Positions 30,112 to 46,646 are shown, numbered from the stretch's first letter. The stretch: 64,000 bases of DNA from an uncultured Chloroflexia bacterium (GCA_963797095.1 CAWCNY010000002.1:928001-992000), one strand, 5' to 3'. Notes: generated by a model from the letters alone, not told the origin. Made by a program: numbers and translations.

Positions 30112-33100
30112 TTAACTGCCCCCGGCAAACAGCACATCATCAAGGTAGAAGGTAGGTTGTGGGCCTCCTGTCGTGTCCTGTAGCACAATGGCTGTTATCA
30201 CCCGGCTGGTAGCACCCAGGTCAGATAGAGGTATGCTTACCTGCCTCCAACTGTTCTGGCCTATGCTCCCACCACTGATGTAGCTGTCCAGCGGCCTCGA
30301 TGTAAGGTAATTACCGTTGGCATCGGCCACATACACCTCCATCTGCTGGCCTGAGCTGGACCCACCATTCACCCAGAAGGTGAGGCGGTCATACCCTGTG
30401 GTGTTGAACCCACTGCTGCCAAGCTGCAACCCTGCCCACGAACCAGTGAACTGGACGCTGGTAGACCTGCTCCCAGCATGCACATAGGCAGTGCTCGCGA
30501 AGTTGATGTTCGACCTCCACGACCAATTCTGCCACCCGTTGTCTAGTGCATCGTCATACACCGTACTGTGCGTACCCGCAACAGAGGTAGGTGTACTCGT
30601 AGCGGGCACTGAAGTGCGTGTGGCTGTACGGGTAGGTGTAACGGTAGGAGAACCACCTGACATATGCGTAGGGGTAGCAGTTGCACCTTGGTTTGTCGGT
30701 GTCGGACTGGGTGCAGGACCCCCACCACCGAAGCGGGTGGCCTCGGATATGATGCGGTCCCTCACCGATATCCCATATGGGTTGCTCGGTGTGAAATCCA
30801 TCCGGTCACCTGTCAGAAGACATGGACATCCCTCGTTGTCGAATAGCCATGCTGTCCACCCTATGTGCCTCCCTCCACTGTTCATCGTGTTCATTAGAGT
30901 TTCGGTGTCTGACTGGCTCATCTGTGACCCTGTCCCAAACTCGGTTACCATCACGGGGTAACCTGCATCTGCCACCGACAGGAAGTAGCTCCACTCTGAG
31001 GGTGGGTCGTATGGGTGGGAGGAGTAGACGATATTCTGCCCACCGTCTGCGGTGATGGGATTGCTCACAGCTCCACTGATGTCCCTCCCCCAGTTGCTCC
31101 CTGAGGCAAGGATAAGGTGCTTCTGAGGAGAGGGGTTATCGACAGCCCGCATGGCACTCACCATCTGGTCGTACACAGGACGCAGAGTGGCCCAACTCAC
31201 AGAGTAGTAAGTACCATTCCAATCGCCTGAGTGAGGCTCAGCCTGGAGCATAAAGAGGACATTGGACTTGTTCTTGTAACGCTGAACGAGGTCAACGAGA
31301 GCCTGTTGAGCGTTAGGGTCGACCGAGGCTGTGGGAGGCTGGTCGCCATTGATAGAGGGGTAGTAGTAGCAGTAGATAATGTACATACCATTCTGTTCAG
31401 CGAGTTGTTGGTACTCATCGAGGACAGAGAGGTAGGTAGCATCACCTGCCACCACAGGGCCGGAGGCGAAGCCATGCACAATAAGGTTAGAATGCCAGAC
31501 ATTGGCAAGCTGTGGTACAGCCTGTTCTTCGAAGGACATGGAGGGATAGACCCACTCGTTACGAAGGAGATTCACCCCTCTCAGTTCAACAGGGGAGGAG
31601 TTATCGGCACGCACCACTCTACCGCCCTGTGTCTTCAGCCATGGCAAGGCCCCCCCAGCCTGTGAGGTGGGAGTTGCGGCTGCTACTGTGTTAGTGCGTG
31701 TGGGAGTGTTCACAGGAGTATCAGTGAGGGTGGGTGTTCTGGTAGCCGTAGGTGCGGCGCTTGTGGCTGTTCTAGTGGAAGTGCGCGTAGCTGTGGGTAT
31801 TGCTCCTGTAGGTGTGCGAGTGGATGTGCGTGTAGCGGTGGATACGGGGCTTGTCGGTGTGCGTGTTGCCGTATTGGCAGGTGTGTTTGTTGGAGGTGCT
31901 GAGGTTCTGGTGGCCGTTGCAGGCACGCTTGTGTTAGTCCGAGTAGCCGTCGCCGCGGTGGTCGCTGTTGCAGCCTGCCCGCCGGCAAACAGCACATCAT
32001 CAAGGTAGAAGGTAGGTTGTGGGCCTCCTGTCGTGTCCTGTAGCACAATGGCTGTTATCACCCGGCTGGTAGCACCCAGGTCAGATAGAGGTATGCTTAC
32101 CTGCCTCCAACTGTTCTGGCCTATGCTCCCACCACTGATGTAGCTGTCCAGCGGCCTCGATGTAAGGTAATTACCGTTGGCATCGGCCACATACACCTCC
32201 ATCTGCTGGCCTGAGCTGGACCCACCATTCACCCAGAAGGTGAGGCGGTCATACCCTGTGGTGTTGAACCCACTGCTGCCAAGCTGCAACCCTGCCCACG
32301 AACCAGTGAACTGGACGCTGGTAGACCTGCTCCCAGCATGCACATAGGCAGTGCTCGCGAAGTTGATGTTCGACCTCCACGACCAATTCTGCCACCCATT
32401 CTGCAACACATCATCATACACTGTTGAGCTAACGCCACTAGCGGGTGTAGCAGTTGGCGCGCTAGTAGCCGTGCGCGTGGCTGTTCGGGTAGCCGTCGCC
32501 GAATTGGCAGGCGTTGTACTGGCACCCGGAGTAGACGTGCGCGTCGCTGTACGAGTACTCGTAGCTACTGCGGTCGATGTTCGGGTGGCCGTCGCAGGCG
32601 CTGAGGTAGATGTAGGCACAGGTGTGCCTGGGGTTCCGCCCGGCAGAGGCAAAGTGCCACCGCTGTAGTATGCAGCCGCGTTGGCGCGGATGTATCCACC
32701 GTCATCGTCCGCCACCGTCGCCACCAGGTTATTCCCGTTGATCGGTGGCGGGTTGGTGATACCGTCGCCCTTAGAATCGAAGTAGTGTGATTGGCTGCCA
32801 ACTCCGGCCCCGAACATCACGCCTATCACCCCATAATTGGCCCACAGGCTCATATGAGAGCGCCCGGTCGAAGCGTTCAGGAAGTATTCAGGACGATTGT
32901 CCTGGTAGTGCCCGTCTGTGTTGTTTTCCGAGCGATATTGTTGGTTGCCGTTAGGCACCTGCCACATAAGTGCTCGCTTGTTGGTAGCCGAATCGATACG
33001 GCCAAGCCAGGCGGCTATAGTATCGAAACTGGGCTGCTGCGAGCTATCGTGCCACCAGCGGTTCGAGCCTTGCACCAGTTCGTAGTAAGCCGCGTCGCGG

Positions 33101-33925
33101 TCCAACGGCGAGAAGAAGTTGAGTGCATAGCCGGGTCCGAAGCTATTGTGGTAAGTCGCTAGGCGATCCGCATGAGCCTGCCAGTTGAAGTTTGGGTCAT
33201 TACGCAAAGAGATAGTCAAATCGGCGCCAGGACCCCATATTGACAGGTCTTGGCCGAGTACCACGTTAGGCGCGTAAAGGTCGCGTAGGTGCGCCAGCGC
33301 CTGCCAGAAGTTGCGGAAGTTATCCGCCATGCCCGCCAGTTCTGGCATCCCTGATCCACCAACCTTGGTTGGTTGAAGGGCCGAGTTGTCGCTGGTGTTA
33401 GATGAGTTCCTGCATCATCACGCCATCCAGGTCAGGCTCGATATTCACGAATGCCGCTTGCCCGTCGTTCATCTGCTGCATCAGGACCTTGAAGTCGTTA
33501 TAGTAAGCCAGCATCGTGGATGCATCGTTCAGATTGCCGTACTCATCGTAGTGAGGGGCCGATTGCAAGATCATGTAGTACACAAACCCGGGCAGGTAGC
33601 CCGCCGAGCGGGATTGCGTTACATAGTTTCTCGCGTAGCTGCTCCCCCATGTCTGCCACCCACCGCCCGTATTCACCCCGCCTGCCAGGTACTGGTAGCG
33701 ATAGTCATACGGAACGCCGGAATGCATATCTGAAAGGTTGCCATTGAAGAGACCATAGCCGAAATGGCTAGGAAAACCTCCTGGAATCGGGGCCAGCGTG
33801 GGGCTGGCCGCCTTAACGGTTGGCAATATCTGCCCGCTCAACCCGGCTGCACCTGCAACGAGAAGAACGGCAATAGCCAGTAATATTCGAATGCGCTTGT
33901 TCAATTTAACTCCTTTCACCCGCAA
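30112..33925 (-). CDS. Large secreted multidomain glycoside hydrolase (N-terminal GH-like domain, duplicated CBM-like domains, GH5-like domain), frameshifted near 33405-33411
   Basis: Signal peptide in ORF 33398-33925; the protein continues in another frame (NSSNTSDNSALQPTKVGGSGM). GH5-like motifs LRGVN, QAEPH, VYSSHPY, VMVTEFG, IGWTAW; Thr-rich linkers. Confidence 0.75.
30122..32397. repeat. Identical 416-bp direct repeat (30122-30537 and 31982-32397) encoding the CBM-like domain
   Basis: Line-by-line identity at an offset of 1860 bp. Confidence 0.92.
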
Positions 33926-36918: not shown

Positions 36919-37062
36919 GAGCCAGTTTTTTCTAGTAGACGGCAAGAGGCATCGCGGAAGCGGTGAATTCGCGCACCTGCATGATAGCAAGTTGACCAGC
37001 CAAGGTTATAGATCTCGAAAAGACCTACATTCGTGCTCAGATGTTTATTACAAACAAAGAAG

Positions 37063-37089
37063 AAGCCCTACCAAAACGGTAGAGCTTTT
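37063..37089 (-). terminator. Terminator hairpin; near-copy of the one downstream of tRNA-Asp
   Basis: AAGCCCTACCAAAACGGTAGAGCTTTT versus AAGCTCTACCAAAAGGTAGAGCTTTT at 46544. Confidence 0.75.
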
Positions 37090-37090
37090 G

Positions 37091-37104
37091 GGCGGAAGTG
37101 ACGG
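37091..37104. repeat. att-like copy 1 of the tRNA-Asp 3' end
   Basis: GGCGGAAGTGACGG is 13/14 identical to 46571-46584. Confidence 0.8.
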
Positions 37105-37233
37105 AGATTGCACCGTCACTTACGATCTTTCCAGCCTCAAGTTGCATCAGCAGCAAGAAATCGTTGAACCTATTCTACTCTTGCCTCATCCGAAAAGTCA
37201 AGGTCGGTATGCTGTACGGGTGCGCGCCATCGT

Positions 37234-38740
37234 TTAGGCGACTTTTCTGAGAGGGCGAGTTTTGGGCCAGCATTGCTCCCACCTCTCACTGAGCAGTTCG
37301 GCTCTCAGTGTCAGCACCCCTTGTGCTCCTGGTTTGCTCCAACACATGCCTGCTCCCTTGAGACGGGCACCAATCAGCCGCTTGCATGCACTCTCCACCG
37401 TGCCTGAACCAACTGGGAAGCCCAATGCCCGGTACTCGGAGTAGCGCATCCTCTCTTTGTTCGTCTGAAAGTAATAAATCTGCTCTCGTGCCGCTTCTCC
37501 CGCCTCCCCTTCACGTTTGCTCTCTCTGTGTAGAGCCACAATGACTGCTTCTACCCTTCCCTCCCATAATTCCTTCTCCCAACGCTTCACCCATCTTGCG
37601 GCGTCTGGTGTGCCCTGCCCGAAGATACCATTACCTGCTTGCCACAGGTGCTCCATGGCGTGATACCAGTCGAGTACCTCTACCCTGTTGGCAAAGTGCT
37701 CATCGAACTGTATCCAGTTGGTGGGTGCCCCATCTCCCAGACATACAACCTGCTCCTCAGGGCCTATCCCTCTCCTCCATGCTTCAGCACTCAACCGCTT
37801 TCCTGCCCGCTCCATCGAGCCGACCTCCGCCACATAGCTCTGATGGGTGGCTCTTGCCCCCTCTATCTCTCCTGCTTCGTTGTATGCAGGCTCGGCCCAA
37901 AACACCACTCCCGCTTTAGCGTCATGCCACCCATCTTCGTAGCGCACCTTGCCAGCGTCCAGCGTCGCCGCCCATGTGCCCAAGCCCAATGCTCCATCTG
38001 CAACCTTTGAACCTTTCTGAGAGGTGGGACTTGCCCCTAGCGTTTGATCTTCTGCTTGCAAGCTCTCCTCTCCTCTTGCAAGCTCTCCTCTCCTCTTGCA
38101 AGCTCTCCTCTCCTCTTGCAAGCTCTCCTCTCCTCTTGCAAGCTCTCCTCTCCTCTTGCAAGCTCTCCTCTTGCAAGCTCTCCTCTAATGTAAGCCCCCT
38201 CTGTTCAGTCATGCGCTCGGCTTCTCTTGGAGAGACCGACATGCCAGTGAGTACCTCCACTGCATGTGCAGCCTGCTCGAAAGGCATCTGCACACCCAGC
38301 AGGCACACTCCTTGTTGCACTCCGTCCGAGAAGTGTTCCCGTGCGGGTATGCCTAGAGCCTCATCCAGCGGGTAGCGTCCGGTGCCACACCCTTTACAGT
38401 AGAAGTAACCTCTCTCCAATGTGACCGTGCCTACCCATGTTTGCACAGTGCGCCGCTGCTTACCCTTGTACTGGGGTGTCTGCCCGCAGTCACACTGCTT
38501 GTGCCCAAGCAGCCATTCTTCCTCTATCATGGCACGATGCAGTTGGGCTGCGGCTTCTAAGGCTGAGGCGAAACAGTCCGAGCGCAGTTGACGTGCTCTT
38601 TCTTCGAGACTGCTCAAAGTAGCATCCGGGTTGCGTTGAGCATATATCCAAAGTTGTTTGACGAGCCCCTCAAATTCCTTCACAATACTAGTGAGGGCAG
38701 GTGACAGGTCGCAAACGGCCTGAAACTCGCTACTCTGCAT
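37234..38740 (-). pseudogene. ISKra4-family transposase frameshifted by an internal tandem repeat
   Basis: N-terminal part has CDCG...YFYCKGC...PLDEALG; C-terminal part has CLGDGAPTNW, LDWYHAMEHL and GSGTVESACK. Confidence 0.85.
38055..38184. repeat. Tandem repeat: 5 x 20 bp (CTTGCAAGCTCTCCTCTCCT) plus 2 x 15 bp
   Basis: Read directly from the sequence. Confidence 0.9.
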
Positions 38741-39038
38741 GATACCCTCCAGGATTTCGGCCTTAGCCGGGATGTCTTCACCTAGAGGGTATCATTTTTC
38801 TTTCCTTCCTAAAAGATGGCGCGCACCCATGCTGTACCACTTACCCAAATACCTAAAGAGCAATGGGAAGACGCGGTCCAGCGCCATAGGAAAGGCGAGA
38901 GCTTGCGGCAACCGGCAAAGGAATATGGAGTTTCACACGAAGCTATTCGGCAAGTTCTGATGCGATATGGCAGTCACGAGTTGTAAGGCTTCCCTGGGTA
39001 TCAGGAATACGTCCATTTGAGGATAAAGGTATAGGCCG

Positions 39039-41861
39039 TTAATTCAGCATCTTGTCTGGCTGAGTACGCACAATCACTGCATAAGCTACAGCGGCTTCCA
39101 TGGACATTGCCAACCCCGCTCGCCATGCCCGATCCCACGCGGCCTCGTCTAGCTGTGCCCTGGCGCTTGCCAGATGCCTGTCCCGCTCAATCTGCTCTGC
39201 TGGCCACATGTAAGCCCCTATTGCCGAGCGCAATCCTTCGGAAGCTCCAAAGAGGCGTGCCGCTCGCGTTGGATCGCCTTGCGCGCCCGCCAACGCCGCG
39301 AACCCGGTCAGGCACTCGGAGATGCCCTGTTTGTTGCCGATCTCTTGATGGAGCGTCAGGCTCTCCTTGAATAATGCCCCTGCTTTTGGGTAATCCCCTT
39401 TAGCAAGTGCTACATAGCCCAGGTTGTGTAGCACACCCGGGATATCGCTCGTCCCCCCTTGATCCTGGAACAAAAGCAGACTTTCCTCATAGAATGAGCC
39501 TGCTCGCGGGTAATTGCCCTCGATACGCGCTATATCGGCCAGCAAGGCGGACGCCTGAGCCATCCCGTAAGGATCTCCCACTTCTCTGGACAGCGCCCTA
39601 CATTCCTCCCAAGTGGACCTGGCTACTGAGTAATCTCCATGCATGAAAGACAACATTCCCGACGACATCAGCCCAAGTACCAGCCCTGGCTTGCCTTCGT
39701 CTCCTAGCTGGCGGAACAGTTTCACCCCTTCTGAATTTATCGTGCGTCCTTCCTGGTCTCCTCCAAACGCCATAGTGACTCCCAAACTAGAACGTGCATA
39801 TGCCAACCCTAGCTTATCTCCCAACTCTCGTGAGATAGCTGTGCTTTCCTCAAGCAGAACCTGCCCCGCCGAGGGGTCGCCCTGCAAAAAGGTCATGTAG
39901 CCTGCGGCGTACAAGGCCCTTGCTCGTAATTGGGTAGGCTCCGGCACACCCGGCAATAGCGCCTCCATCCACCGCCGCCCTTCACTCAGGTGGCCTCGCA
40001 TCTGCCAGAAAAGATGGAGCGCGGTGGCGATGCCCAAACCTACCTCTTTATCACCTACGCTGCTGAGGCTCCATTGGAGGGCTGCCCGCATATTGTCGTG
40101 TTCGGTCTCCAGCCTTTGCGCGGCTTCCTTCTGCCTTAGGGTCTGAATAAGCGGTGCGCATTCTTCGGCCACCTGCAGAAAGTAGTAAGCATGTGCTCGT
40201 CGCATGATGCTTATCTCGCCCCGCTCTTCCAGGCGCTCCAGCGCGTACTCGCGTATTGTCTCCAGCATCATAAAGCGAGATTCAACATGTGTGCCATCAA
40301 CCTGGCGTAGCAGGCTCTTATCATTAAGTGAGGCTACTCCGTCGAATATATTCATTTCGAAGGGGGCCAGTTCGTCCGGCGTAGAACCAGTATGGGTGGG
40401 CAACGAACGGCCTGCAGCAACAGCCTCAGCCGCCTCGAAAGTGCAACCGCCCATGAAAACGCCCATTCGGCGAAATAAGGTGCGTTCGTCGGACGATAAC
40501 AGATCGTAGCTCCAACCGATCGCGCATCGCAATGTCTGCTGACGAGCAGGCAGGTCACGCCCTCCACCAGTCAACACTTTCAGGCTGCTCTCCAACCTGG
40601 ATAGGATAGCCTGTGGAGTAAGGAGCTTAACTCGGGCCGCCGCCAACTCGATTGCCAGCGGCAGCCCATCAAGACGAACACAGATCTCGGCTATTATCGG
40701 GGCATTTTCGTTCGTCAGATCGAAGTCCGGTTTTACATCTCTGGCGCGCTCGATGAACAGGCGAACACTTTCAAAATCGGTCAGGTTCTCCAACGTGGGA
40801 GAATGGCGTAGGTCTGGCAGTTGCAAAGGAGGTGCCGGGAACTCTTTCTCACCGTATATATGGAGCACCTCGCGGCTCGTGACTAGCACCTTCAATTGAG
40901 AAGCGTCAGACAATAGTTCGCTCACTACCTGCCCCGCGCTGGACACCTGCTCGAAGTTGTCCAATAAGAGCAATAGCTCTTTCTGACCCAGATAGGCTTT
41001 CAAGCTTTCTATGATAGGCCGATTCCCATCTCCCATGAGGCCAAGTGTCTTAGCAATAGCTACCGGCACGAGGGCGGGATCGGTCAAAGCAGCTAGGGGC
41101 ACAAAGAAGACCCCATCACGAAAGCGGTCGAGCAACATTTCGCCCACTTGAAGTGAGAGGCGAGTCTTACCCGTGCCACCTGGGCCTGTGAGGGTTACAA
41201 GACGCACTTGCGGTCTGGCAAGTATCTCCTGCGTTAGCTCGACTTCCTTCTTCCTACCAATGAAGTCGGTTCGCTGAACCGGCAGATTGTTTGGGCGTGT
41301 ATCCAGCGTCTTGATGGGAGGGAAATCAGAAGGCAGATCGTCAACAACCATCTGGAAGACATGTTCCGGACGTTGCAAGTCCTTCAACTTGTGATCTCCC
41401 AGGTCGCGCAATCCGACCCCCTCCGGCAGATTATCGAAAACCAACTGATAGGTCGCACCAGTAAGCAAGATCTGTCCCCCATACCCGACAGCGAGCAAGC
41501 GCGCTATGCGATTCAGATGTGGTCTAACGTAATCACCTTCCCTTACCTCACCGGGACCGGTATGCAAAGCCATTCTCACCTTGATTGGAGCTACGCGGGG
41601 GTCCCATCTCTCTTGATGCAAAGCGCGCTGCGCGGCGAGCACCGCGCCCAGGGCCTGGGGCGCTAATACGAAGCAAGCGCAGAACGCATCGCCCATCCTT
41701 CTGAAGACTACGCCTCTGAATGCTTCGATGGCTTCCTGCAGTATGGCATCATGTCTCTCGACGGCCGCCTTCATGGCGCCCGGATGCTGCTCCCAGCGCA
41801 CGGTGCTGCTCTCGATATCAGTGTACAGGAACGTCAGAGTTCCAGTTGGTAGTTGCAACAT
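39039..41861 (-). CDS. Class III adenylate/guanylate cyclase domain + STAND/NB-ARC-like ATPase + TPR protein
   Basis: TFLYTDIESST, MGDAF, RMALHTG; TLTGPGGTGKTRL, LLLDNFEQV, LDGLPLAIELAAAR; TPR-like C-terminus. Confidence 0.9.
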   Translation of the reverse strand: MLQLPTGTLTFLYTDIESSTVRWEQHPGAMKAAVERHDAILQEAIEAFRGVVFRRMGDAFCACFVLAPQALGAVLAAQRALHQERWDPRVAPIKVRMALHTGPGEVREGDYVRPHLNRIARLLAVGYGGQILLTGATYQLVFDNLPEGVGLRDLGDHKLKDLQRPEHVFQMVVDDLPSDFPPIKTLDTRPNNLPVQRTDFIGRKKEVELTQEILARPQVRLVTLTGPGGTGKTRLSLQVGEMLLDRFRDGVFFVPLAALTDPALVPVAIAKTLGLMGDGNRPIIESLKAYLGQKELLLLLDNFEQVSSAGQVVSELLSDASQLKVLVTSREVLHIYGEKEFPAPPLQLPDLRHSPTLENLTDFESVRLFIERARDVKPDFDLTNENAPIIAEICVRLDGLPLAIELAAARVKLLTPQAILSRLESSLKVLTGGGRDLPARQQTLRCAIGWSYDLLSSDERTLFRRMGVFMGGCTFEAAEAVAAGRSLPTHTGSTPDELAPFEMNIFDGVASLNDKSLLRQVDGTHVESRFMMLETIREYALERLEERGEISIMRRAHAYYFLQVAEECAPLIQTLRQKEAAQRLETEHDNMRAALQWSLSSVGDKEVGLGIATALHLFWQMRGHLSEGRRWMEALLPGVPEPTQLRARALYAAGYMTFLQGDPSAGQVLLEESTAISRELGDKLGLAYARSSLGVTMAFGGDQEGRTINSEGVKLFRQLGDEGKPGLVLGLMSSGMLSFMHGDYSVARSTWEECRALSREVGDPYGMAQASALLADIARIEGNYPRAGSFYEESLLLFQDQGGTSDIPGVLHNLGYVALAKGDYPKAGALFKESLTLHQEIGNKQGISECLTGFAALAGAQGDPTRAARLFGASEGLRSAIGAYMWPAEQIERDRHLASARAQLDEAAWDRAWRAGLAMSMEAAVAYAVIVRTQPDKMLN

Positions 41862-41936
41862 GGTGAACGCATAATAGCAAAAACGTCCGACTTTGGCACG
41901 GGTACAAACAGGTGTTCCCCTACCCTCTTCAGAATA

Positions 41937-41970
41937 CAAGTAAGCCAGTGGCATACCACTGGCTTACTTG
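41937..41970. terminator. Hairpin adjacent to att copy 2
   Basis: CAAGTAAGCCAGTGG-CATA-CCACTGGCTTACTTG, a 15-bp perfect stem. Confidence 0.7.
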
Positions 41971-41978
41971 ACATAACT

Positions 41979-42236
41979 TGCGGAAGCGACGGGGATTGCA
42001 CCGTCAATTACGACTTTTCGTCTCTAAACCTGCACGAGCGACAAGAAATCCTTGATCCTATCTTATTCTCACCACGCAAGAAAAGTCAAGGTCGGTATTC
42101 CATGCCCCTCACACACATTCCGGAGGAGCAATGGGAAGAAGTGGCTCAACGCCACGTGAACGGCGAGAGCCTGCGCCTGTTAGCGAAGAGCTACGGAGTC
42201 TCGCATGAAGCTGTGCGGCAGGTTGTCAAGAGATAA
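41979..42236 (+). CDS. att-linked HTH protein tail, copy 2 (no start codon at the core; frame open from 41853)
   Basis: CGSDGDCTVNYDFSSL...GESLRLLAKSYGVSHEAVRQVVKR*; HTH-like pattern SLRxLAxxYGVSHExVR. Confidence 0.65.
   Translation, partial: CGSDGDCTVNYDFSSLNLHERQEILDPILFSPRKKSQGRYSMPLTHIPEEQWEEVAQRHVNGESLRLLAKSYGVSHEAVRQVVKR
41980..41993. repeat. att-like copy 2 of the tRNA-Asp 3' end
   Basis: GCGGAAGCGACGGG is identical to 46572-46585. Confidence 0.85.
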
Positions 42237-42366: not shown

Positions 42367-42837
42367 TCAATCAGGGCTTAGGGGCGGTCCAAGCAGGGAC
42401 ATATCATGTCTATCGAAAACCGCTGCAACGTCCTTCGGGTCGGGCTTGCCGTTGCGCGTAAGAGGCCCAAGCTCTTCGTAAAACCTGTGTCCACCGCCCG
42501 GTGTGTACACCACGATGATCTCGGCTGTCTCATCGGTCAAGTTTACAAAGGCATGCGGCACCTTTGATGGAAGGTATGCAAAGCCTCCTTCGTTGAGGTG
42601 GAAGATGTCGTCACCGATTCGAACCTTGAACCGGCCTTTCAGCACATGAATGGTCTCCTCCTGTATATGGTGAACATGTAATGGAGGTCCGTTTTTCGGT
42701 GCCACCTGGACTACAAAATAGTCCAATGCTCCGCCGGTATCGTCGCCGGTAACCTTGAAAATGAGATCTCTGCCCGGACCCGATTGGAGGATCAAACCCT
42801 CAGCTTCGGCAAGGACCTTGTATCCAGTCGTTATCAT
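42367..42837 (-). CDS. Cupin domain protein
   Basis: GPPLHVHHIQEE...PSKVPHAFVN; AAGGAG RBS. Confidence 0.9.
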   Translation of the reverse strand: MITTGYKVLAEAEGLILQSGPGRDLIFKVTGDDTGGALDYFVVQVAPKNGPPLHVHHIQEETIHVLKGRFKVRIGDDIFHLNEGGFAYLPSKVPHAFVNLTDETAEIIVVYTPGGGHRFYEELGPLTRNGKPDPKDVAAVFDRHDMSLLGPPLSPD

Positions 42838-43051
42838 CTTCAACTCCTTATTGAAACCGGTTATTTTCTTCATAGCGGTCACCGGTCTTTCCAATTCCGG
42901 TCGCGCTTACTGTTCTGACTATACTGGGTCGTCCTCCCGCAAATCTCCCAAAAACCTCTCAAACCATCTCTCAGGCCTCAGGTCGGTTTGCTTTGGGCAG
43001 AATTGGGCGTATAATTCAGCTAAAGAAGCGCGTTGCTACAAGAAGGCCAAC

Positions 43052-46000
43052 ATGCTCAAGATCTACCTGCTAGGCGATTTCTCAGTACACCGCGACGGCA
43101 TCCCCATACCCGCCGCCGACTGGGCGCGCCGTAAAACCAGGTCGCTTCTCAAGCTGCTGGCGCTCCAGCCAGGACACCGGCTGCACCGAGAGCAGGTCAC
43201 CGAATTGCTGTGGCCCGACCTCGATCCGATTGCTGCTCGCGACAACTTCTATCGAAACCTTTCGTTCCTCCGCCATACGCTAGAACCTGAGCTCGAGCGC
43301 CCGGCTGATTCCCACTTTGTGAATCTGCAGGCGGAGATAGTAAAGCTTGGCCCACCGGATGAGGTTTGGATAGACGTGGACGCCTTCGAGAGCCTTATCG
43401 CTCAGGCCCGTACTACGGGGCAGCCGCTCCCGTTGCTTGAGGAAGCGCTGAGTCTCTATACGGGCGATCTTCTGTCGGAAGACACCTATGAAGAATGGAC
43501 TATCTCGCGTAGGGATCTCCTATCGAGGGCAGCGATCAAGGCATTGTTGCAGATAGCCGAAGCGCGGCGGGAAGAGGTGGCCTATGAACCGGCTATCGCC
43601 GCCCTGCAGCGCGTTCTCTCTCTGGATCGCACCGACGAGCAGGCCCACCGTGAACTGATGCGCACGTTTGCGCTCTCCGGACGCCGCCAGGATGCACTGC
43701 GCCAGTACGAGCAGTGCTGTAAGGTGCTGCAATCAGAACTGAACGTGGAGCCTGAGGCGGAAACCACCGGCCTGTATGATAGCATCGCAAGGGGCGATAT
43801 GGGCAGACGCTTCACCCCTGCGGTGCCTGGTGTGCCAGCCGGGCATGCAGCTGCTCGGCCACAACTCCCCGGGACGACTGAGTCTTTGAATAATCTGCCG
43901 GACATTGGCACGCCCTTGATAGGACGCGAACGTGAGGTAGCAGAAGCATGCCGCCATCTGCGCCGCCGCGAGGTGAGACTGCTCACGATGACCGGCACGG
44001 CGGGCATCGGAAAGACCCGCCTCGCTGTTGAAGTAGCGCACGCCCTGATCGAGGACTTTCGGGATGGTACGCTCTTTGTGCCCCTGGCCCATGCCCAGGA
44101 CGCCATTCAAGTGTTCCCGGCCATCGCGCAGGCACTTGGGCTGAAAGAGGACGGGGACCGCCCTTTGCCGGAGAGCCTTCAGGCTTTCCTGCGCCATCGA
44201 CAACTTCTGATTGTGCTGGACAACTTCGAGCATGTGATCCAGGCGGCCTCCGCTCTCGCCCAGGTCCTGTCCGCTTGCCCCGGCCTCAAGTTGCTCGTTA
44301 CCAGCCGGGAACTGCTACGCCTCACGCTGGAGCACGATTTTCCGGTTCAACCCCTGTCGTTGCCGGACCTGAACCACCTTCCGCCGCCACAGGACCTGGG
44401 CGACTATACATCTATTTGCCTGTTCTTAACCAGAGCCGCCGCTGTGAAGCCTGGGTTTGCACTCACATCTGATAATGCTGTGGCTGTGGCCGAGATTTGC
44501 AGCCGGTTGGACGGGCTACCTCTCGCTATCGAGCTTGCCGCGGCGCGGGTGCGTCTCCTAGCGCCCCAAGCCCTGCTGGCGCGGCTGAGCAACCGCCTGC
44601 GCCTGCTCACCGGCGGGGCCCGCGATCTGCCCGAGCGCCAGCAGACCATCTACAAGGCTATCGATTGGAGTTACGGTCTCTTGAGCACAAGGGAAAAGTC
44701 GATTTTTGCTCGCTTGTCGGTGTTTGTCGAGGGGTGCACGGAGGAGGCTGCTGCTGCGGTCTGCTACGACCTGGAGAGCGTAGGCGACCTTGGTGCCCTG
44801 GACGACCTCTCGCTGCTTGTAGATAAGAGCCTCCTGCGGTCGGAATCGGAGATCCAGAAACCGGGGGCTGTCGGGGCGGGAACCGGATCACTCGCAAACG
44901 GATACCCTGAGTCGCGGTTCAAAATGCTCGAGACGATCCGCGAATACGCTTCGGAGAGACTGACCGAGAGCGGAGAGTTGGCCGGAACGCAGGCGCGCCA
45001 CGCCCGATATTACCTGTCGATCGCCGAGGCGGGCGAAGATAACTGGTTCACTGCCGAGCAGCACTACTGGCTGGAGAGGTTTGATCAAGAGCAGTACAAC
45101 TTCCAGGCAGCACTGGTCTGGGCGATCCGGAGCGACCTAGAGGTGGCGATCAGGTTTGGCGGCGCGCTCTGGCACTACTGGCTGGCGCATGGGTACCTCA
45201 CGGAGGGGAGGCGATGGCTTGAACAGGCCATAGCGGAGGTGCCGAGATCAGAAGATGCAGCGCTCGGTCCAGACAGGGCCGGGCGCGCGAAAGCGTTATT
45301 CGGGGCGGGTGTGCTGGCGACTCACCAGGCGGATTATGCCCGCGCCGGCGAGTTGATCGCCCAATCGCTCGGCGTCGCCCGCTCGATCGGCGATGACTTA
45401 CAGATAGCCAATTCCCTCGCCGGGCTTGGGATTAGCATGTACTACCGGGGCGAGTACGATCGCTCGATGTTGCAGTTCGAGGAGGCACTGCAAATCTTCA
45501 GGCGGCTAGGGCACACACGTGGCACGGCCCTGGCGCTGAATAGTCTGAGCGACGCGATCCTATGCCTGGGGGACAGTACGCGCGCTTCGACCCTGGCCGG
45601 GGAGAGCCTGAATCTGTCGCTAGGCATTGGGGACAGTTTCTCCGTGGCTGCCTCGCTAGCCAACCAGGGCCGGGCGCTCCTGCAGCAAGGGGACATAGAG
45701 AAAGCCCTAGCTCTCTTTGAGGAGAGCCTGGCAATTCGGGTCAAGCTGAAGGACAAGGGGGGCATGGCCCACACTCTCAATCTCCTTGGAAACGCGGCCC
45801 TCGCTCGCGGGGACATCACTGGGGCGTCAGGCTTCTACACCCAGAGTCTCACGCTGCGGCATGAACTGGGCGACAGAGAGGGCATGGCAGCCCCATTGGA
45901 GGGGCTGGCTGCCGTAGCGGAAAGGCTTGACTACGTTGAAAGAGCCGCCCGGCTCTACGGCGCTGCCGAGGCGCTACGGGAGGCGATCGGTGCGCCCATT

Positions 46001-46144
46001 CCGCCCACGGACTTCGGACTGCATAGTCGAGCTATTTCCTCGCTGAAGTCACGTTCGGAAGGAGATGCCATAGCCGCAGAATGGAGGATGGGGCGGGCTC
46101 TGCAGATAGAGGACGCAGTATCTTACGCCCTCTCTGAGGGCTGA
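43052..46144 (+). CDS. SARP/AfsR-like regulator: wHTH + BTAD + STAND ATPase + TPR
   Basis: IYLLGDF, LLWPD, IDVDAFE, LYTGDLL, EQAHRELMR; TGTAGIGKTRL, VLDNFEHV, LDGLPLAIELAAAR. Confidence 0.92.
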   Translation: MLKIYLLGDFSVHRDGIPIPAADWARRKTRSLLKLLALQPGHRLHREQVTELLWPDLDPIAARDNFYRNLSFLRHTLEPELERPADSHFVNLQAEIVKLGPPDEVWIDVDAFESLIAQARTTGQPLPLLEEALSLYTGDLLSEDTYEEWTISRRDLLSRAAIKALLQIAEARREEVAYEPAIAALQRVLSLDRTDEQAHRELMRTFALSGRRQDALRQYEQCCKVLQSELNVEPEAETTGLYDSIARGDMGRRFTPAVPGVPAGHAAARPQLPGTTESLNNLPDIGTPLIGREREVAEACRHLRRREVRLLTMTGTAGIGKTRLAVEVAHALIEDFRDGTLFVPLAHAQDAIQVFPAIAQALGLKEDGDRPLPESLQAFLRHRQLLIVLDNFEHVIQAASALAQVLSACPGLKLLVTSRELLRLTLEHDFPVQPLSLPDLNHLPPPQDLGDYTSICLFLTRAAAVKPGFALTSDNAVAVAEICSRLDGLPLAIELAAARVRLLAPQALLARLSNRLRLLTGGARDLPERQQTIYKAIDWSYGLLSTREKSIFARLSVFVEGCTEEAAAAVCYDLESVGDLGALDDLSLLVDKSLLRSESEIQKPGAVGAGTGSLANGYPESRFKMLETIREYASERLTESGELAGTQARHARYYLSIAEAGEDNWFTAEQHYWLERFDQEQYNFQAALVWAIRSDLEVAIRFGGALWHYWLAHGYLTEGRRWLEQAIAEVPRSEDAALGPDRAGRAKALFGAGVLATHQADYARAGELIAQSLGVARSIGDDLQIANSLAGLGISMYYRGEYDRSMLQFEEALQIFRRLGHTRGTALALNSLSDAILCLGDSTRASTLAGESLNLSLGIGDSFSVAASLANQGRALLQQGDIEKALALFEESLAIRVKLKDKGGMAHTLNLLGNAALARGDITGASGFYTQSLTLRHELGDREGMAAPLEGLAAVAERLDYVERAARLYGAAEALREAIGAPIPPTDFGLHSRAISSLKSRSEGDAIAAEWRMGRALQIEDAVSYALSEG

Positions 46145-46540
46145 ATGCTATCCCCGCATGATTGTGGTGCGAGAGATTGAATACCCATGTGTGCACAAAA
46201 GCGCGTGCAGAAGTCTTTAGAGAGGAACCGGAACGCAACAACGAGAATAAGAGAATGCAGGCGCGAACAATCGAGCAGCAAAATAGATGGGCTTCCTCCG
46301 CTATTATACCAAGTTCGAGACTTTTGGCACTCACATTTGCAGTCCGATATACCCAACGTTTTTGAGACAGATCGCAATATGCAGCTTGCTATTAACCGGT
46401 AACCGGTGCCAGCCGTGCATGTCTCGTCAATAGTCGCGGAAGCGAAAAGATGACGAACCGACGATTACGACCTCTGCAAGGTCGCACTTTATCCACCAAT
46501 TACAGCCAAATTCGTGCGTGAGTTGCACTTGCAAATGTGA

Positions 46541-46569
46541 AAAAAGCTCTACCAAAAGGTAGAGCTTTT
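46541..46569 (-). terminator. tRNA-Asp terminator
   Basis: AAAAGCTCTACC-loop-GGTAGAGCTTTT immediately downstream of the tRNA. Confidence 0.85.
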
Positions 46570-46572
46570 CGG

Positions 46573-46646
46573 CGGAAGCGACGGGATTCGAACCCGCGGT
46601 CTCGGCCTTGACAGGGCCGCATGTTAGGCCACTACACCACGCCTCC
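46573..46646 (-). tRNA. tRNA-Asp(GTC)
   Basis: GGAGGCG acceptor stem, TGG D-loop, anticodon loop CT-GTC-AA, GGTTCGAATCC T-arm. CCA is not fully encoded (CCG). Confidence 0.96.

What the first reader, a model, noticed from the sequence alone, without database searches (positions are those of the whole stretch)
41853..42236. The att core is protein-coding: recombination would swap a C-terminal HTH tail for a tRNA-antisense peptide
Seen in the sequence: in both copies the core reads in-frame as (G/C)GSDG and continues about 80 aa to an HTH. The copies are 58/85 aa identical with no gaps and many third-position changes. Homology begins exactly at the core, and there is no start codon shared by both copies. 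The same frame through the real tRNA reads GGSDGIRTRGLGLDRAAC* (46571-46627). Established: attP can lie within int or repressor genes (Myxococcus phage Mx8 int; mycobacteriophage BPs repressor), so integration changes the C-terminus. Inference: attP lies inside a gene, probably the recombinase. The excised form would carry the HTH and the integrated form an 18-aa tRNA-derived tail, a possible built-in directionality or regulatory switch.
Basis: partly seen in the sequence, partly recalled or inferred. Interest (0 to 1): 0.8.

Follow-up and report, generated by a model that had tools for sequence, protein, structure and literature searches.

The report
Orphan tails of tRNA-targeting serine recombinases
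The two repeated coding pieces beside tRNA-Asp fragments look like left-over ends of a mobile-element recombinase gene that its own integration cuts in two; the recombinase itself is gone from this stretch of DNA.

Summary
Two copies of an antisense tRNA-Asp 3' end are each followed by a conserved ~85-codon frame ending in a helix-turn-helix (HTH). They are 58/85 aa identical with dN/dS 0.13. Copy 1 aligns without gaps only after a 1,611-bp IS is removed.

In other Chloroflexia, 11 of 11 examined large serine recombinase (LSR) genes next to a real tRNA-Asp run into the tRNA on its antisense strand. Nine of them end with the predicted tail, GSDGIRTRGL.LDR.AC.

The HTH piece sits at the far end of the integrated element, has no start codon of its own, and lies in the same frame relative to the core as that element's LSR (3 of 3 elements with both ends). 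In one intact 32.9-kb element, joining the ends gives a 641-codon LSR-HTH frame, against 562 codons when integrated. One natural 601-aa LSR-core-HTH frame also exists.

The window holds no LSR. Its two copies are orphaned attR-side tails in a decayed array that now carries STAND NTPase and cupin genes.

No excised circle was seen, and what the tail swap does is inferred. This is a new variant of the Mx8/SSV 'attP inside the integrase gene' theme, here with a serine recombinase and a tRNA target.

The parts
46571..46646 (-). Intact tRNA-Asp(GTC) gene. Its 3' end (46571-46585 on the + strand) is the att core.
   Evidence: ARAGORN. Rfam tRNA model, 63.4 bits, 46573-46646. Sequence read.
46541..46570 (.). 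Hairpin plus T-run. In tRNA sense this is the terminator just behind the tRNA. It is of the type seen beside LSR-free tRNA-Asp genes of relatives.
   Evidence: Sequence. The same hairpin type stands at L035 14428, L057 and L015.
41979..42236 (+). Copy 2 of the orphan LSR tail. It comprises the partial core (41980-41993), a linker with the motif LHERQEILDP, a three-helix HTH, and the stop at 42234-42236.
   Evidence: AlphaFold2 helices at residues 49-60, 65-72 and 76-84. Weak Pfam HTH matches.
41939..41978 (.). Hairpin plus spacer left of copy 2. This is the tRNA-proximal end of the neighbouring cassette. The same hairpin type precedes cores in L034 and L048.
37091..37217 (+). Copy 1 of the tail, 5' part: core at 37092-37104, then the linker up to the IS insertion point.
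   Evidence: ARAGORN's 'tRNA-Gln' call here (37089-37183) has no Rfam tRNA match even at E<=1.
37218..38828 (-). Insertion sequence that splits copy 1. It has 11-nt inverted ends, a 9-bp target duplication (37209-37217 and 38829-38837), and transposase frames at 37234-38121 and 37922-38740.
   Evidence: duplication and inverted ends printed. Pfam UPF0236 match. Public contigs stop exactly at 37218 and 38828. About 10 full or partial copies in the genome.
38838..38986 (+). Copy 1 of the tail, 3' part: the HTH and the stop at 38984-38986.
37060..37091 (.). Hairpin plus T-run left of copy 1. It is 90% identical over 31 nt to the one beside the real tRNA, and is the displaced tRNA downstream flank at the far end of the array.
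   Evidence: Repeat family D14. Alignment.
39039..41954 (-). Cargo of the left cassette: NB-ARC/TPR STAND NTPase.
   Evidence: Pfam.
42367..42894 (-). Cargo of the right cassette: cupin-domain protein.
   Evidence: Pfam.
42755..46144 (+). Cargo of the right cassette: BTAD + NB-ARC + TPR regulator-like protein. No recombinase lies between it and the tRNA.
   Evidence: Pfam. An LSR query matches the window only at the tRNA itself.

Best explanation
The two copies are orphaned 3'-terminal coding segments ('tails') of large serine recombinase (LSR) genes. They come from integrative elements of Chloroflexia that insert into the 3' end of tRNA-Asp(GTC).

Shown in relatives:
- The LSR gene lies at the tRNA-proximal end of the integrated element.
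- It is transcribed towards the tRNA.
- It has no stop before the att core, so in the integrated state it ends inside the antisense tRNA: about 18 codons in frame a, 12 in frame b, and 30 in frame c (stop just beyond the gene).
- The tail lies at the other end of the element, directly behind the displaced copy of the core. It has a linker with the motif LHEQQEI.DP and a three-helix HTH, and no start codon of its own.
- The tail is in the same frame relative to the core as that element's LSR.

Inferred: in the excised circle the two ends join into one LSR-linker-HTH protein, about 80 residues longer than the integrated form. Integration therefore swaps a DNA-binding C-terminal domain for a short tRNA-encoded peptide and silences the tail.

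My committed guess for function (about even odds): the HTH tail helps the excised-form enzyme bind its own attP region or regulate itself. Its loss on integration would then make recombinase activity depend on the element's state.

In this window the LSR halves have been lost. Two tails remain in a decayed tandem array, one hit by an IS, that now carries STAND NTPase and cupin genes. They are most likely untranslated relics whose purifying-selection signature dates from their time in active elements.
For: Window:
- Three direct copies of the core; two are followed by the conserved frame.
- dN/dS is 0.13, and 0.17 between core and HTH.

Family:
- The tail was found in 17 of 61 related genomes, G000 included, always behind an antisense tRNA-Asp fragment and in arrays left of a minus-strand tRNA-Asp.
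- 15 of 16 copies are open for at least 19 codons upstream of the motif, that is, through the core. There is no conserved start.
- The core is read in three frames.

LSR:
- Pfam finds Resolvase + Recombinase + Zn_ribbon_recom in L044 6469-8025 and L061 8833-10521.
- 11 of 11 LSR loci carry a convergent tRNA-Asp that the LSR frame enters: 9 in frame a, 1 in frame b, 1 in frame c.
- LSR C-terminal remnants lie immediately left of cores or tRNAs in L033, L035, L036, L038 and L050.

Frame match within one element: 3 of 3.
- G061:C51, 33554-66465: 16-nt identical repeats, LSR and tail both in frame a. The in-silico circle gives 641 codons against 562 integrated.
- The tRNA-adjacent cassettes of L036 and L033 are both frame b at both ends.

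Frame match at genome level:
- G132 and G174: LSR frame a, tails frame a.
- G105: LSR frame b, both tails frame b.

Natural in-frame junctions: P0029 (a), P0036 (b), P0045 (c), L050 (a), and a full-length 601-aa frame in L072.

No tyrosine integrase on the intact element's contig: 0 of 16 genome hits lie on G061:C51.

Predicted docking of the tail on the LSR body: weak support. Score 0.51 (runs 0.51, 0.59, 0.50) against a best of 3 controls of 0.00. At least 62% of contacts are shared between runs and partner pLDDT is at least 60. That mark was reached by 58 of 80 solved complexes and 2 of 110 mismatched pairs, but a score of 0.60 or under came from only 7 of those 80 solved complexes and from both mismatches that passed.
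Against: - No excised circle or attP junction was observed. The public runs were contigs only and showed no such joint.
- The window and its genome hold no LSR of this family. Everything about the LSR rests on relatives.
- Junctions between neighbouring elements are out of frame in L035 (a|b), L038 (c|a) and L044 (c|a). In L044 and L070 the LSR stops 7-8 codons after the core, and L056 also looks out of frame. I read these as hybrids between different elements, which is an assumption.
- In G102 the candidate far-end core has no HTH in any frame, and no tail was found in that genome.
- G053 has a frame-a LSR and a frame-c tail, on different contigs.
- A word-index search for long fused proteins found only ordinary LSRs of 518 and 505 aa.
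- Residues 1-47 of the tail are predicted disordered.
- The flank next to the real tRNA in the window is host-type rather than an element end. The history of this array is not resolved.
Confidence: 0.75

Rival explanations
1. The tail is a separate small gene (a regulator or recombination directionality factor) that merely abuts attP. It would be translated from a start inside the LSR 3' end or by coupling. The LSR simply ends a few codons past the core, and the in-frame cases are coincidence. Integration would still cut the small gene from its start.
For: - In L044 the LSR stops 8 codons after the core, and an ATG four codons before the core opens the tail frame.
- In L070 the LSR stops 7 codons after the core.
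- In the locus sample, only 1 of 4 neighbour junctions is in frame, about chance.
- LSR directionality factors are small and diverse (abstract listing of PMC11795197).
Against: - Frames match in 3 of 3 elements with both ends, and at genome level in G132, G174 and G105.
- No start is conserved in 16 copies.
- Coding constraint runs up to the core.
- A natural 601-aa continuous frame exists.
- The L044 junction joins a frame-c LSR to a frame-a tail, as expected of two different elements.
Confidence: 0.15
2. These are ordinary tyrosine-integrase islands at a tRNA gene, and the HTH is an excisionase-like gene next to attR. The LSRs would be unrelated neighbours.
For: - tRNA genes are the classic targets of tyrosine integrases (passages of PMC4383910).
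- A truncated tyrosine-integrase fragment lies in one cassette, L058 6242-6562.
- A XerC/D-like gene lies beside the tRNA in L035.
Against: - The L035 integrase lies on the 5' side of the tRNA, outside the array.
- No tyrosine integrase lies on the contig of the intact element (0 of 16).
- The LSR overlaps the tRNA in 11 of 11 loci from several families.
- No Pfam excisionase family matches the tail.
Confidence: 0.04
3. The repeated frame is not coding. The similarity would reflect DNA-level att arm sites or a tRNA-like RNA.
For: - The first ~30 nt behind the core are nearly invariant at the nucleotide level within a subgroup and form a T-arm-like hairpin.
- ARAGORN calls a 95-nt 'tRNA-Gln' on copy 1.
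Against: - Third-position excess of 40 of 72 differences, and pS 0.66 against pN 0.17.
- Synonymous codon alternation occurs in the motif across 16 copies.
- Indels keep the frame.
- There is no Rfam tRNA match at copy 1, even at E<=1.
Confidence: 0.02

Closest known systems
Myxophage Mx8 integrase (IntP/IntX)
   Same: attP lies inside the integrase coding sequence, so integration gives the gene a new 3' end and an altered C-terminus. Seen as passages of PMC6070905; the reference is cited in PMC4383910.
   Different: - Mx8 Int is a tyrosine recombinase; here the enzyme is a large serine recombinase.
- Here the swapped part is a whole HTH domain of about 90 residues, against 12-30 tRNA-antisense codons.
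- Here the displaced part stays as an orphan frame at the far end of the element.
SSV-type 'suicidal' integrases of archaea
   Same: The recombination site lies inside the integrase gene, and the gene is partitioned on integration. That the usual target is a tRNA gene is my recollection; the passages I read (PMC8371274; abstract listing of PMC7253208) do not state it.
   Different: - They are tyrosine recombinases. The review I read says they occur 'exclusively in the archaeal domain'.
- There the catalytic gene is split. Here the catalytic, recombinase and zinc-ribbon domains stay intact and only the C-terminal tail changes.
Integration-dependent immunity of mycobacteriophage BPs
   Same: attP lies inside a gene, so the integrated and the free form encode different C-termini of a DNA-binding protein. 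Seen in the abstract listing of PMC4557955 and passages of PMC8092301.
   Different: - There the gene is the repressor and the integrase is a tyrosine recombinase.
- Here the gene is the recombinase itself.
- No degradation tag was identified here.
Canonical large serine integrases (phiC31, Bxb1, A118, SPbeta)
   Same: The same Pfam domain set, Resolvase + Recombinase + Zn_ribbon_recom, in the relatives' LSRs.
   Different: - Known serine systems are described with short common cores (5-8 bp) inside protein genes (passages of PMC8092301).
[quoted passage not shown]
- Here the target is a tRNA gene, with 14-16 nt of identity, and the gene crosses its own site.
Tandem accretion of integrative elements and cis-mobilisable remnants at one att site (ICESt1/CIME of Streptococcus thermophilus; recalled, not read here)
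   Same: Arrays of elements and integrase-less remnants separated by copies of the att core.
   Different: Here each remnant keeps a coding fragment of the recombinase gene, because the site lies inside that gene.

Membership tests
Island integrated in a tRNA gene (att repeats) | An intact tRNA gene plus displaced direct copies of its 3' end that bound the inserted DNA. | tested here: met
   Cores at 37092, 41980 and 46572. tRNA confirmed.
Island integrated in a tRNA gene (att repeats) | A recombinase gene on board. | tested here: not met
   No recombinase lies between the cores in the window (Pfam on 10 frames). The LSR profile and LSR queries find nothing but the tRNA itself. The feature is met in relatives.
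Large serine recombinase | Resolvase catalytic domain followed by Recombinase and zinc-ribbon domains. | tested here: met
   Met for relatives only: L044 6469-8025 and L061 8833-10521 score above the Pfam cut-offs. Others were assigned by 43-92% identity over about 500 aa. The window encodes only the tail, not these domains.
Large serine recombinase | Short att sites with a small common core and a 2-bp crossover. | tested here: inconclusive
   The common core is 14-16 nt in G061:C51, longer than the 5-8 bp quoted for mycobacterial Int-S systems (passages of PMC8092301). The crossover point was not determined.
Recombinase gene that spans its own attP (Mx8/SSV kind) | The recombinase frame crosses the att core in the integrated state. 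| tested here: met
   11 of 11 LSR frames enter the tRNA-Asp gene.
Recombinase gene that spans its own attP (Mx8/SSV kind) | The other end of the same element continues that frame, so the free form encodes a different C-terminus. | tested here: met
   3 of 3 elements with both ends. One natural 601-aa continuous frame. One element (G102) has no HTH at its candidate far end.
Recombinase gene that spans its own attP (Mx8/SSV kind) | Both protein forms are shown to exist and to differ in activity. | not testable with these tools
   No RNA holder was listed and only contigs were laid.
Pfam HTH families (Sigma70_r4, HTH_38, HTH_7, Mor) | Score at or above the family's gathering cut-off. | tested here: not met
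   Window tail: Sigma70_r4 20.3 bits against 24.1; HTH_38 19.5 against 27. Members matching at E<=0.01, of 18: Sigma70_r4 13, Mor 9, HTH_7 5.
Three-helix (homeodomain-like) HTH fold | Three short helices with a turn between the second and third. | tested here: met
   AlphaFold2 helices at 49-60, 65-72 and 76-84, with block pLDDT 81-90. Foldseek gave 0 matches at E<=0.001. The best superpositions are generic HTHs: IstA, and Hin at rmsd 1.0-1.8 over 38-41 columns.
Integration-dependent immunity (BPs type) | attP inside a repressor gene, next to a tyrosine integrase. | tested here: not met
   The gene crossed by the site is the LSR. No tyrosine integrase lies on the intact element's contig.

The most novel reading that the evidence does not exclude
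A Chloroflexia-wide family of large serine recombinases targets a tRNA gene and rewrites its own C-terminus each time it recombines.

The excised element would make an LSR with an extra linker-plus-HTH domain. The integrated element makes an LSR that ends in a tRNA-antisense peptide. In tandem arrays, an upstream LSR can regain a tail from its neighbour.

The tail swap would be a self-encoded sensor of integration state that tunes direction or level of recombination. It would be the first such case for serine recombinases, and a bacterial counterpart of the archaeal self-splitting integrases.
Probability: 0.45. Interest if true: 0.8.

Novelty: new variant of a known kind. Interest (0 to 1): 0.65.

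Why it matters
- **Engineering.** Large serine recombinases are prized genome-engineering tools because their direction is controlled simply. A natural family in which the recombination product itself changes the enzyme's domain make-up would offer a new, testable way of controlling direction or activity.
- **Target range.** It would also show that serine recombinases can use tRNA genes, which the Islander paper (2014, passages read) described as unknown for this family.
- **Annotation.** The result explains a set of 'hypothetical proteins' of 64-161 aa with arbitrary N-termini beside tRNA-Asp fragments in Chloroflexia assemblies. They are gene-caller readings of orphan recombinase tails.
- **Island mapping.** It marks tRNA-Asp as an accretion hot spot. 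The cargo seen there includes STAND NTPases, TIR, type I restriction-modification, SIR2, and HerA/NurA-like genes.

Tried and rejected
**Readings abandoned**
- First working idea: tandem tyrosine-integrase islands with an excisionase-like HTH at attR. I dropped it when no integrase was found in any cassette and the LSR link appeared.
- Idea that the Leu of the motif is the start: rejected, since CTT, CTA and ATC occur there.
- Idea that a frame from the tRNA-proximal end of the window's right cassette continues into the core: rejected, since a TGA lies 10 codons before it and there is no LSR remnant.
- The second tRNA-Asp gene of the genome has an unrelated sequence and flank. A core-like match on contig C6 is a chance hit inside a gene.

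**Searches with no useful result**
- Viral contigs: 0 of 97 pattern stretches confirmed.
- Phage records: no match.
- Metagenome contigs: 1 weak locus of 186 stretches.
- Solved structures by sequence: nothing below E 0.2.
- Long fused proteins by word index: only 2 ordinary LSRs.

**Sequencing runs**
- No RNA holder was listed.
- Four runs were laid as contigs only. Much of the stretch has no cover, and no excision or circle joint was seen.

**Closed or unused tools**
- Supplements of papers were not consulted.

**Literature**
Five searches turned up no report of a serine recombinase whose gene spans its own attP, or of one targeting a tRNA gene. That is absence in those searches only.
Full report
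**1. The observation**

ARAGORN and Rfam place one real tRNA-Asp(GTC) gene at 46571-46646 on the minus strand. The antisense of its 3' end, GCGGAAG(C/T)GACGG, recurs at 41980 and 37092.

Behind both partial copies one frame reads (G/C)GSDGDCTV.YD.SSL.LH..QEI..PIL and runs on to an HTH and a stop. Copy 1 is interrupted at 37218-38828 by an insertion sequence. The IS has 11-nt inverted ends and a 9-bp target duplication. Public contigs break exactly at its ends, and the genome holds about ten copies.

With the IS and one duplicate removed by coordinates in a script, the copies compare as follows:
- 58/85 aa and 183/255 nt identical, with no gaps.
- Differences fall 19/13/40 on codon positions 1/2/3.
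- dN/dS is 0.13 overall and 0.17 for residues 6-45, between core and HTH.
- The other two frames show no excess of synonymous change.

The left flanks of the two copies do not align.

**2. The window has no recombinase**

Between the cores lie these genes:
- an NB-ARC/TPR STAND NTPase (39039-41954, minus strand);
- a cupin (42367-42894, minus strand);
- a BTAD-NB-ARC-TPR protein (42755-46144, plus strand);
- the IS transposase.

Each core, including the real one, is preceded on the + strand by a hairpin plus T-run. In tRNA sense this is a terminator right behind the tRNA end. The hairpin sequences differ between sites while the pairing is kept.

**3. The tail family**

The 85-aa query finds only these two copies in the own genome. 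It matches 17 of 61 related genomes, G000 included: 14 of 25 other genomes of the same genus and 2 of 3 of a genus in another family. Record titles name these organisms as Chloroflexia MAGs. One relic lies on a plasmid of Ca. Chlorohelix allophototropha.

The copies stand in arrays to the left of a minus-strand tRNA-Asp. Their cargo is varied and often defence-like.

Three features pointed away from a free-standing gene:
- **The core is read in three frames** relative to the conserved downstream frame. These are GSDG (frame a), RKRR (frame b) and EAT (frame c).
- **No start is conserved.** The Leu codon of the motif is CTG 11, CTT 2, CTA 1, TTG 1 and ATC 1 of 16 copies. Four of 16 copies have no ATG/GTG/TTG after the nearest upstream stop.
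- **The frame stays open through the core.** It is open for at least 19 codons upstream of the motif in 15 of 16 copies.

Database gene calls give these proteins arbitrary N-termini.

**4. The recombinase**

A profile search of 1.84 billion representatives gave 1,365 proteins at E<=0.001. I read 37 of the best 150. Three of them (P0029, P0036, P0045) carry an N-terminal extension that runs in frame through the core into the tail.

That extension matches DNA immediately left of cores or tRNAs in L033, L035, L036, L038, L044 and L050. In L044 it is the C-terminus of a 518-aa protein with Resolvase, Recombinase and Zn_ribbon_recom domains.

Searches with that LSR gave:
- homologues at E<=1e-30 in 8 of 61 relatives, with none in G000;
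- homologues at E<=1e-60 in 24 of 401 genomes of the class.

These two tallies include the unpublished genomes G021 and G154. No sequence-level claim here rests on them.

I fetched 11 LSR loci. All 11 carry a convergent tRNA-Asp(GTC), and in all 11 the LSR frame enters the tRNA gene:

| Frame | Loci | Ending |
|---|---|---|
| a | 9 | about 18 codons inside the tRNA, ...GSDGIRTRGL.LDR.AC* |
| b | 1 | 12 codons inside, ...RKRRDSNPRSQP* |
| c | 1 | 30 codons, stop just beyond the tRNA |

The tRNA terminator hairpin is embedded in the LSR's variable C-terminal linker.

**5. Does the free form join LSR and tail?**

On G061:C51 there are only two cores. One at 33554 is followed by a frame-a tail. 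The other at 66465 is the real tRNA, entered by a frame-a LSR. They share 16 identical bases.

The 32.9 kb between them holds TIR, type I restriction-modification, peptidase, Replic_Relax and ParA genes, plus the LSR. No tyrosine integrase lies on that contig: 0 of 16 genome hits. Joining the ends in a script gives one 641-codon frame, against 562 codons in the integrated form.

Further evidence for a continuous frame:
- Two decayed tRNA-adjacent cassettes (L036, L033) have a frame-b tail at one end and a frame-b LSR remnant at the other. That makes 3 of 3 elements with both ends in matching frames.
- At genome level, G132 and G174 have frame-a LSRs and frame-a tails. G105 has a frame-b LSR and two frame-b tails.
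- G394:C10 carries a large array with at least nine tails on one strand. One of its LSRs runs in frame through a core into an HTH, giving a natural 601-aa frame.

Evidence against, or uninformative:
- Neighbour junctions in L035, L038 and L044 are out of frame.
- The L044 and L070 LSRs stop 7-8 codons after the core.
- G102's candidate far end has no HTH.
- G053 pairs a frame-a LSR with a frame-c tail on another contig.
- No circle was observed.

**6. What the tail is**

AlphaFold2 with 18 aligned sequences gives a confident three-helix HTH at residues 49-84 and a disordered N-terminal half.

Pfam and PHROGs matches are generic and below the cut-offs. They include Sigma70_r4, Mor, HTH_7 and 'DNA invertase' C-terminal HTH. 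Foldseek gave no match at E<=0.001; the closest superpositions are transposase and Hin-type HTHs.

The motif LHEQQEI.DP varies almost only at third codon positions across 16 copies. It is therefore a conserved peptide within the half of the tail that is predicted disordered.

A complex prediction of the LSR body (residues 1-514) with the tail gave weak support:
- score 0.51 (runs 0.51, 0.59, 0.50) against a best of 3 controls of 0.00;
- runs share at least 62% of contacts, and partner pLDDT is at least 60;
- the pass mark was reached by 58 of 80 solved complexes and 2 of 110 mismatched pairs;
- a score of 0.60 or under came from only 7 of those 80 solved complexes and from both mismatches that passed.

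**7. Mechanism**

Shown:
- the att repeats;
- the LSR crossing the core into the tRNA;
- the tail at the far end, in a matching frame and without its own start.

Inferred:
- the excised element encodes LSR-linker-HTH;
- integration replaces that tail with a tRNA-coded peptide and silences the tail;
- the swap affects attP binding, regulation or direction.

The window's copies are relics. The flank beside the real tRNA is host-type, and a diverged copy of it lies at the far left. One possible history is that elements entered a second, tandem tRNA-Asp copy whose body and LSR side were later deleted. I did not test this.

**8. Comparison with what is known**

- Mx8 Int and the SSV-type integrases extend across attP (passages of PMC4383910, PMC6070905 and PMC8371274).
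- BPs places attP in its repressor gene (abstract listing of PMC4557955).

All of these use tyrosine recombinases. The review states that self-disrupting integrases are found only in archaea. The Islander paper states that serine integrases were not known to target tRNA genes. Mycobacterial Int-S systems are described with 5-8 bp cores inside protein genes.

My five literature searches found no serine-recombinase case. I therefore rate this a new variant of a known kind.

Noticed in passing
window 38035-38191 (inside the IS at 37218-38828): A 20-nt unit is repeated about seven times inside the transposase gene and splits it into two overlapping frames (37234-38121 and 37922-38740). One public contig carries 19 extra letters behind 38179, and genomic copies of the IS align with different lengths there.
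   Followed up: partly
window 37089-37183, minus strand: ARAGORN calls a 95-nt 'tRNA-Gln(CTG)' on copy 1 of the tail. Rfam gives no tRNA match there even at E<=1. It is a false call seeded by the tRNA-Asp fragment and a T-arm-like hairpin.
   Followed up: yes
L025/L059 (G017:C493), 1038-1588: Here an intact tRNA-Asp is followed on the SAME strand, 27 nt later, by a tail beginning KLHERQEIVNP. This is the opposite orientation to every other case. A second, degenerate tail in the usual form lies behind it. It may be an inversion or a wrong-orientation recombination.
   Followed up: partly
window 46162 and 42242 (run X3): One 959-nt public contig, about 92% like 45942-46162, joins 46162 to 42242 with 31 letters between that read like the last codons of a tail gene. 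A relative therefore has a different order of the same pieces.
   Followed up: no
P0002 (jgi, 90 aa): This tail is 98% identical to window copy 2 but is preceded by the host-type hairpin reading (VELSGGSDG) instead of the hairpin at 41939-41978. In that close relative the left cassette seems to be absent. The contig could not be read.
   Followed up: no
G394:C10, about 13-223 kb: At least nine tails lie on one strand and three on the other, with three full LSRs, all in one 527-kb contig. This is a very large accretion array at one site.
   Followed up: partly
P0028, P0039, P0043, P0093: Long proteins (572-1,557 aa) are built of 7-12 tandem copies of an HTH similar to the tail's. By Pfam they are homeodomain-like or HTH_7-like repeats. 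They show no link to the recombinase.
   Followed up: partly
L035 15273-16361 (G012:C9): A XerC/D-like tyrosine recombinase lies on the 5' side of the tRNA-Asp, outside the cassette array.
   Followed up: partly
window 30119-30418 and 31979-32278: Two exact 300-nt direct repeats, 1,860 nt apart, lie inside the 1,078-aa frame 30112-33348.
   Followed up: no
L044 4330-5972; L065 11151-12242; L061 7523-8317: The intact elements carry Replic_Relax and ParA genes next to the LSR. This suggests a plasmid-like free form. A ParA fragment also survives beside the LSR remnant in L036.
   Followed up: partly
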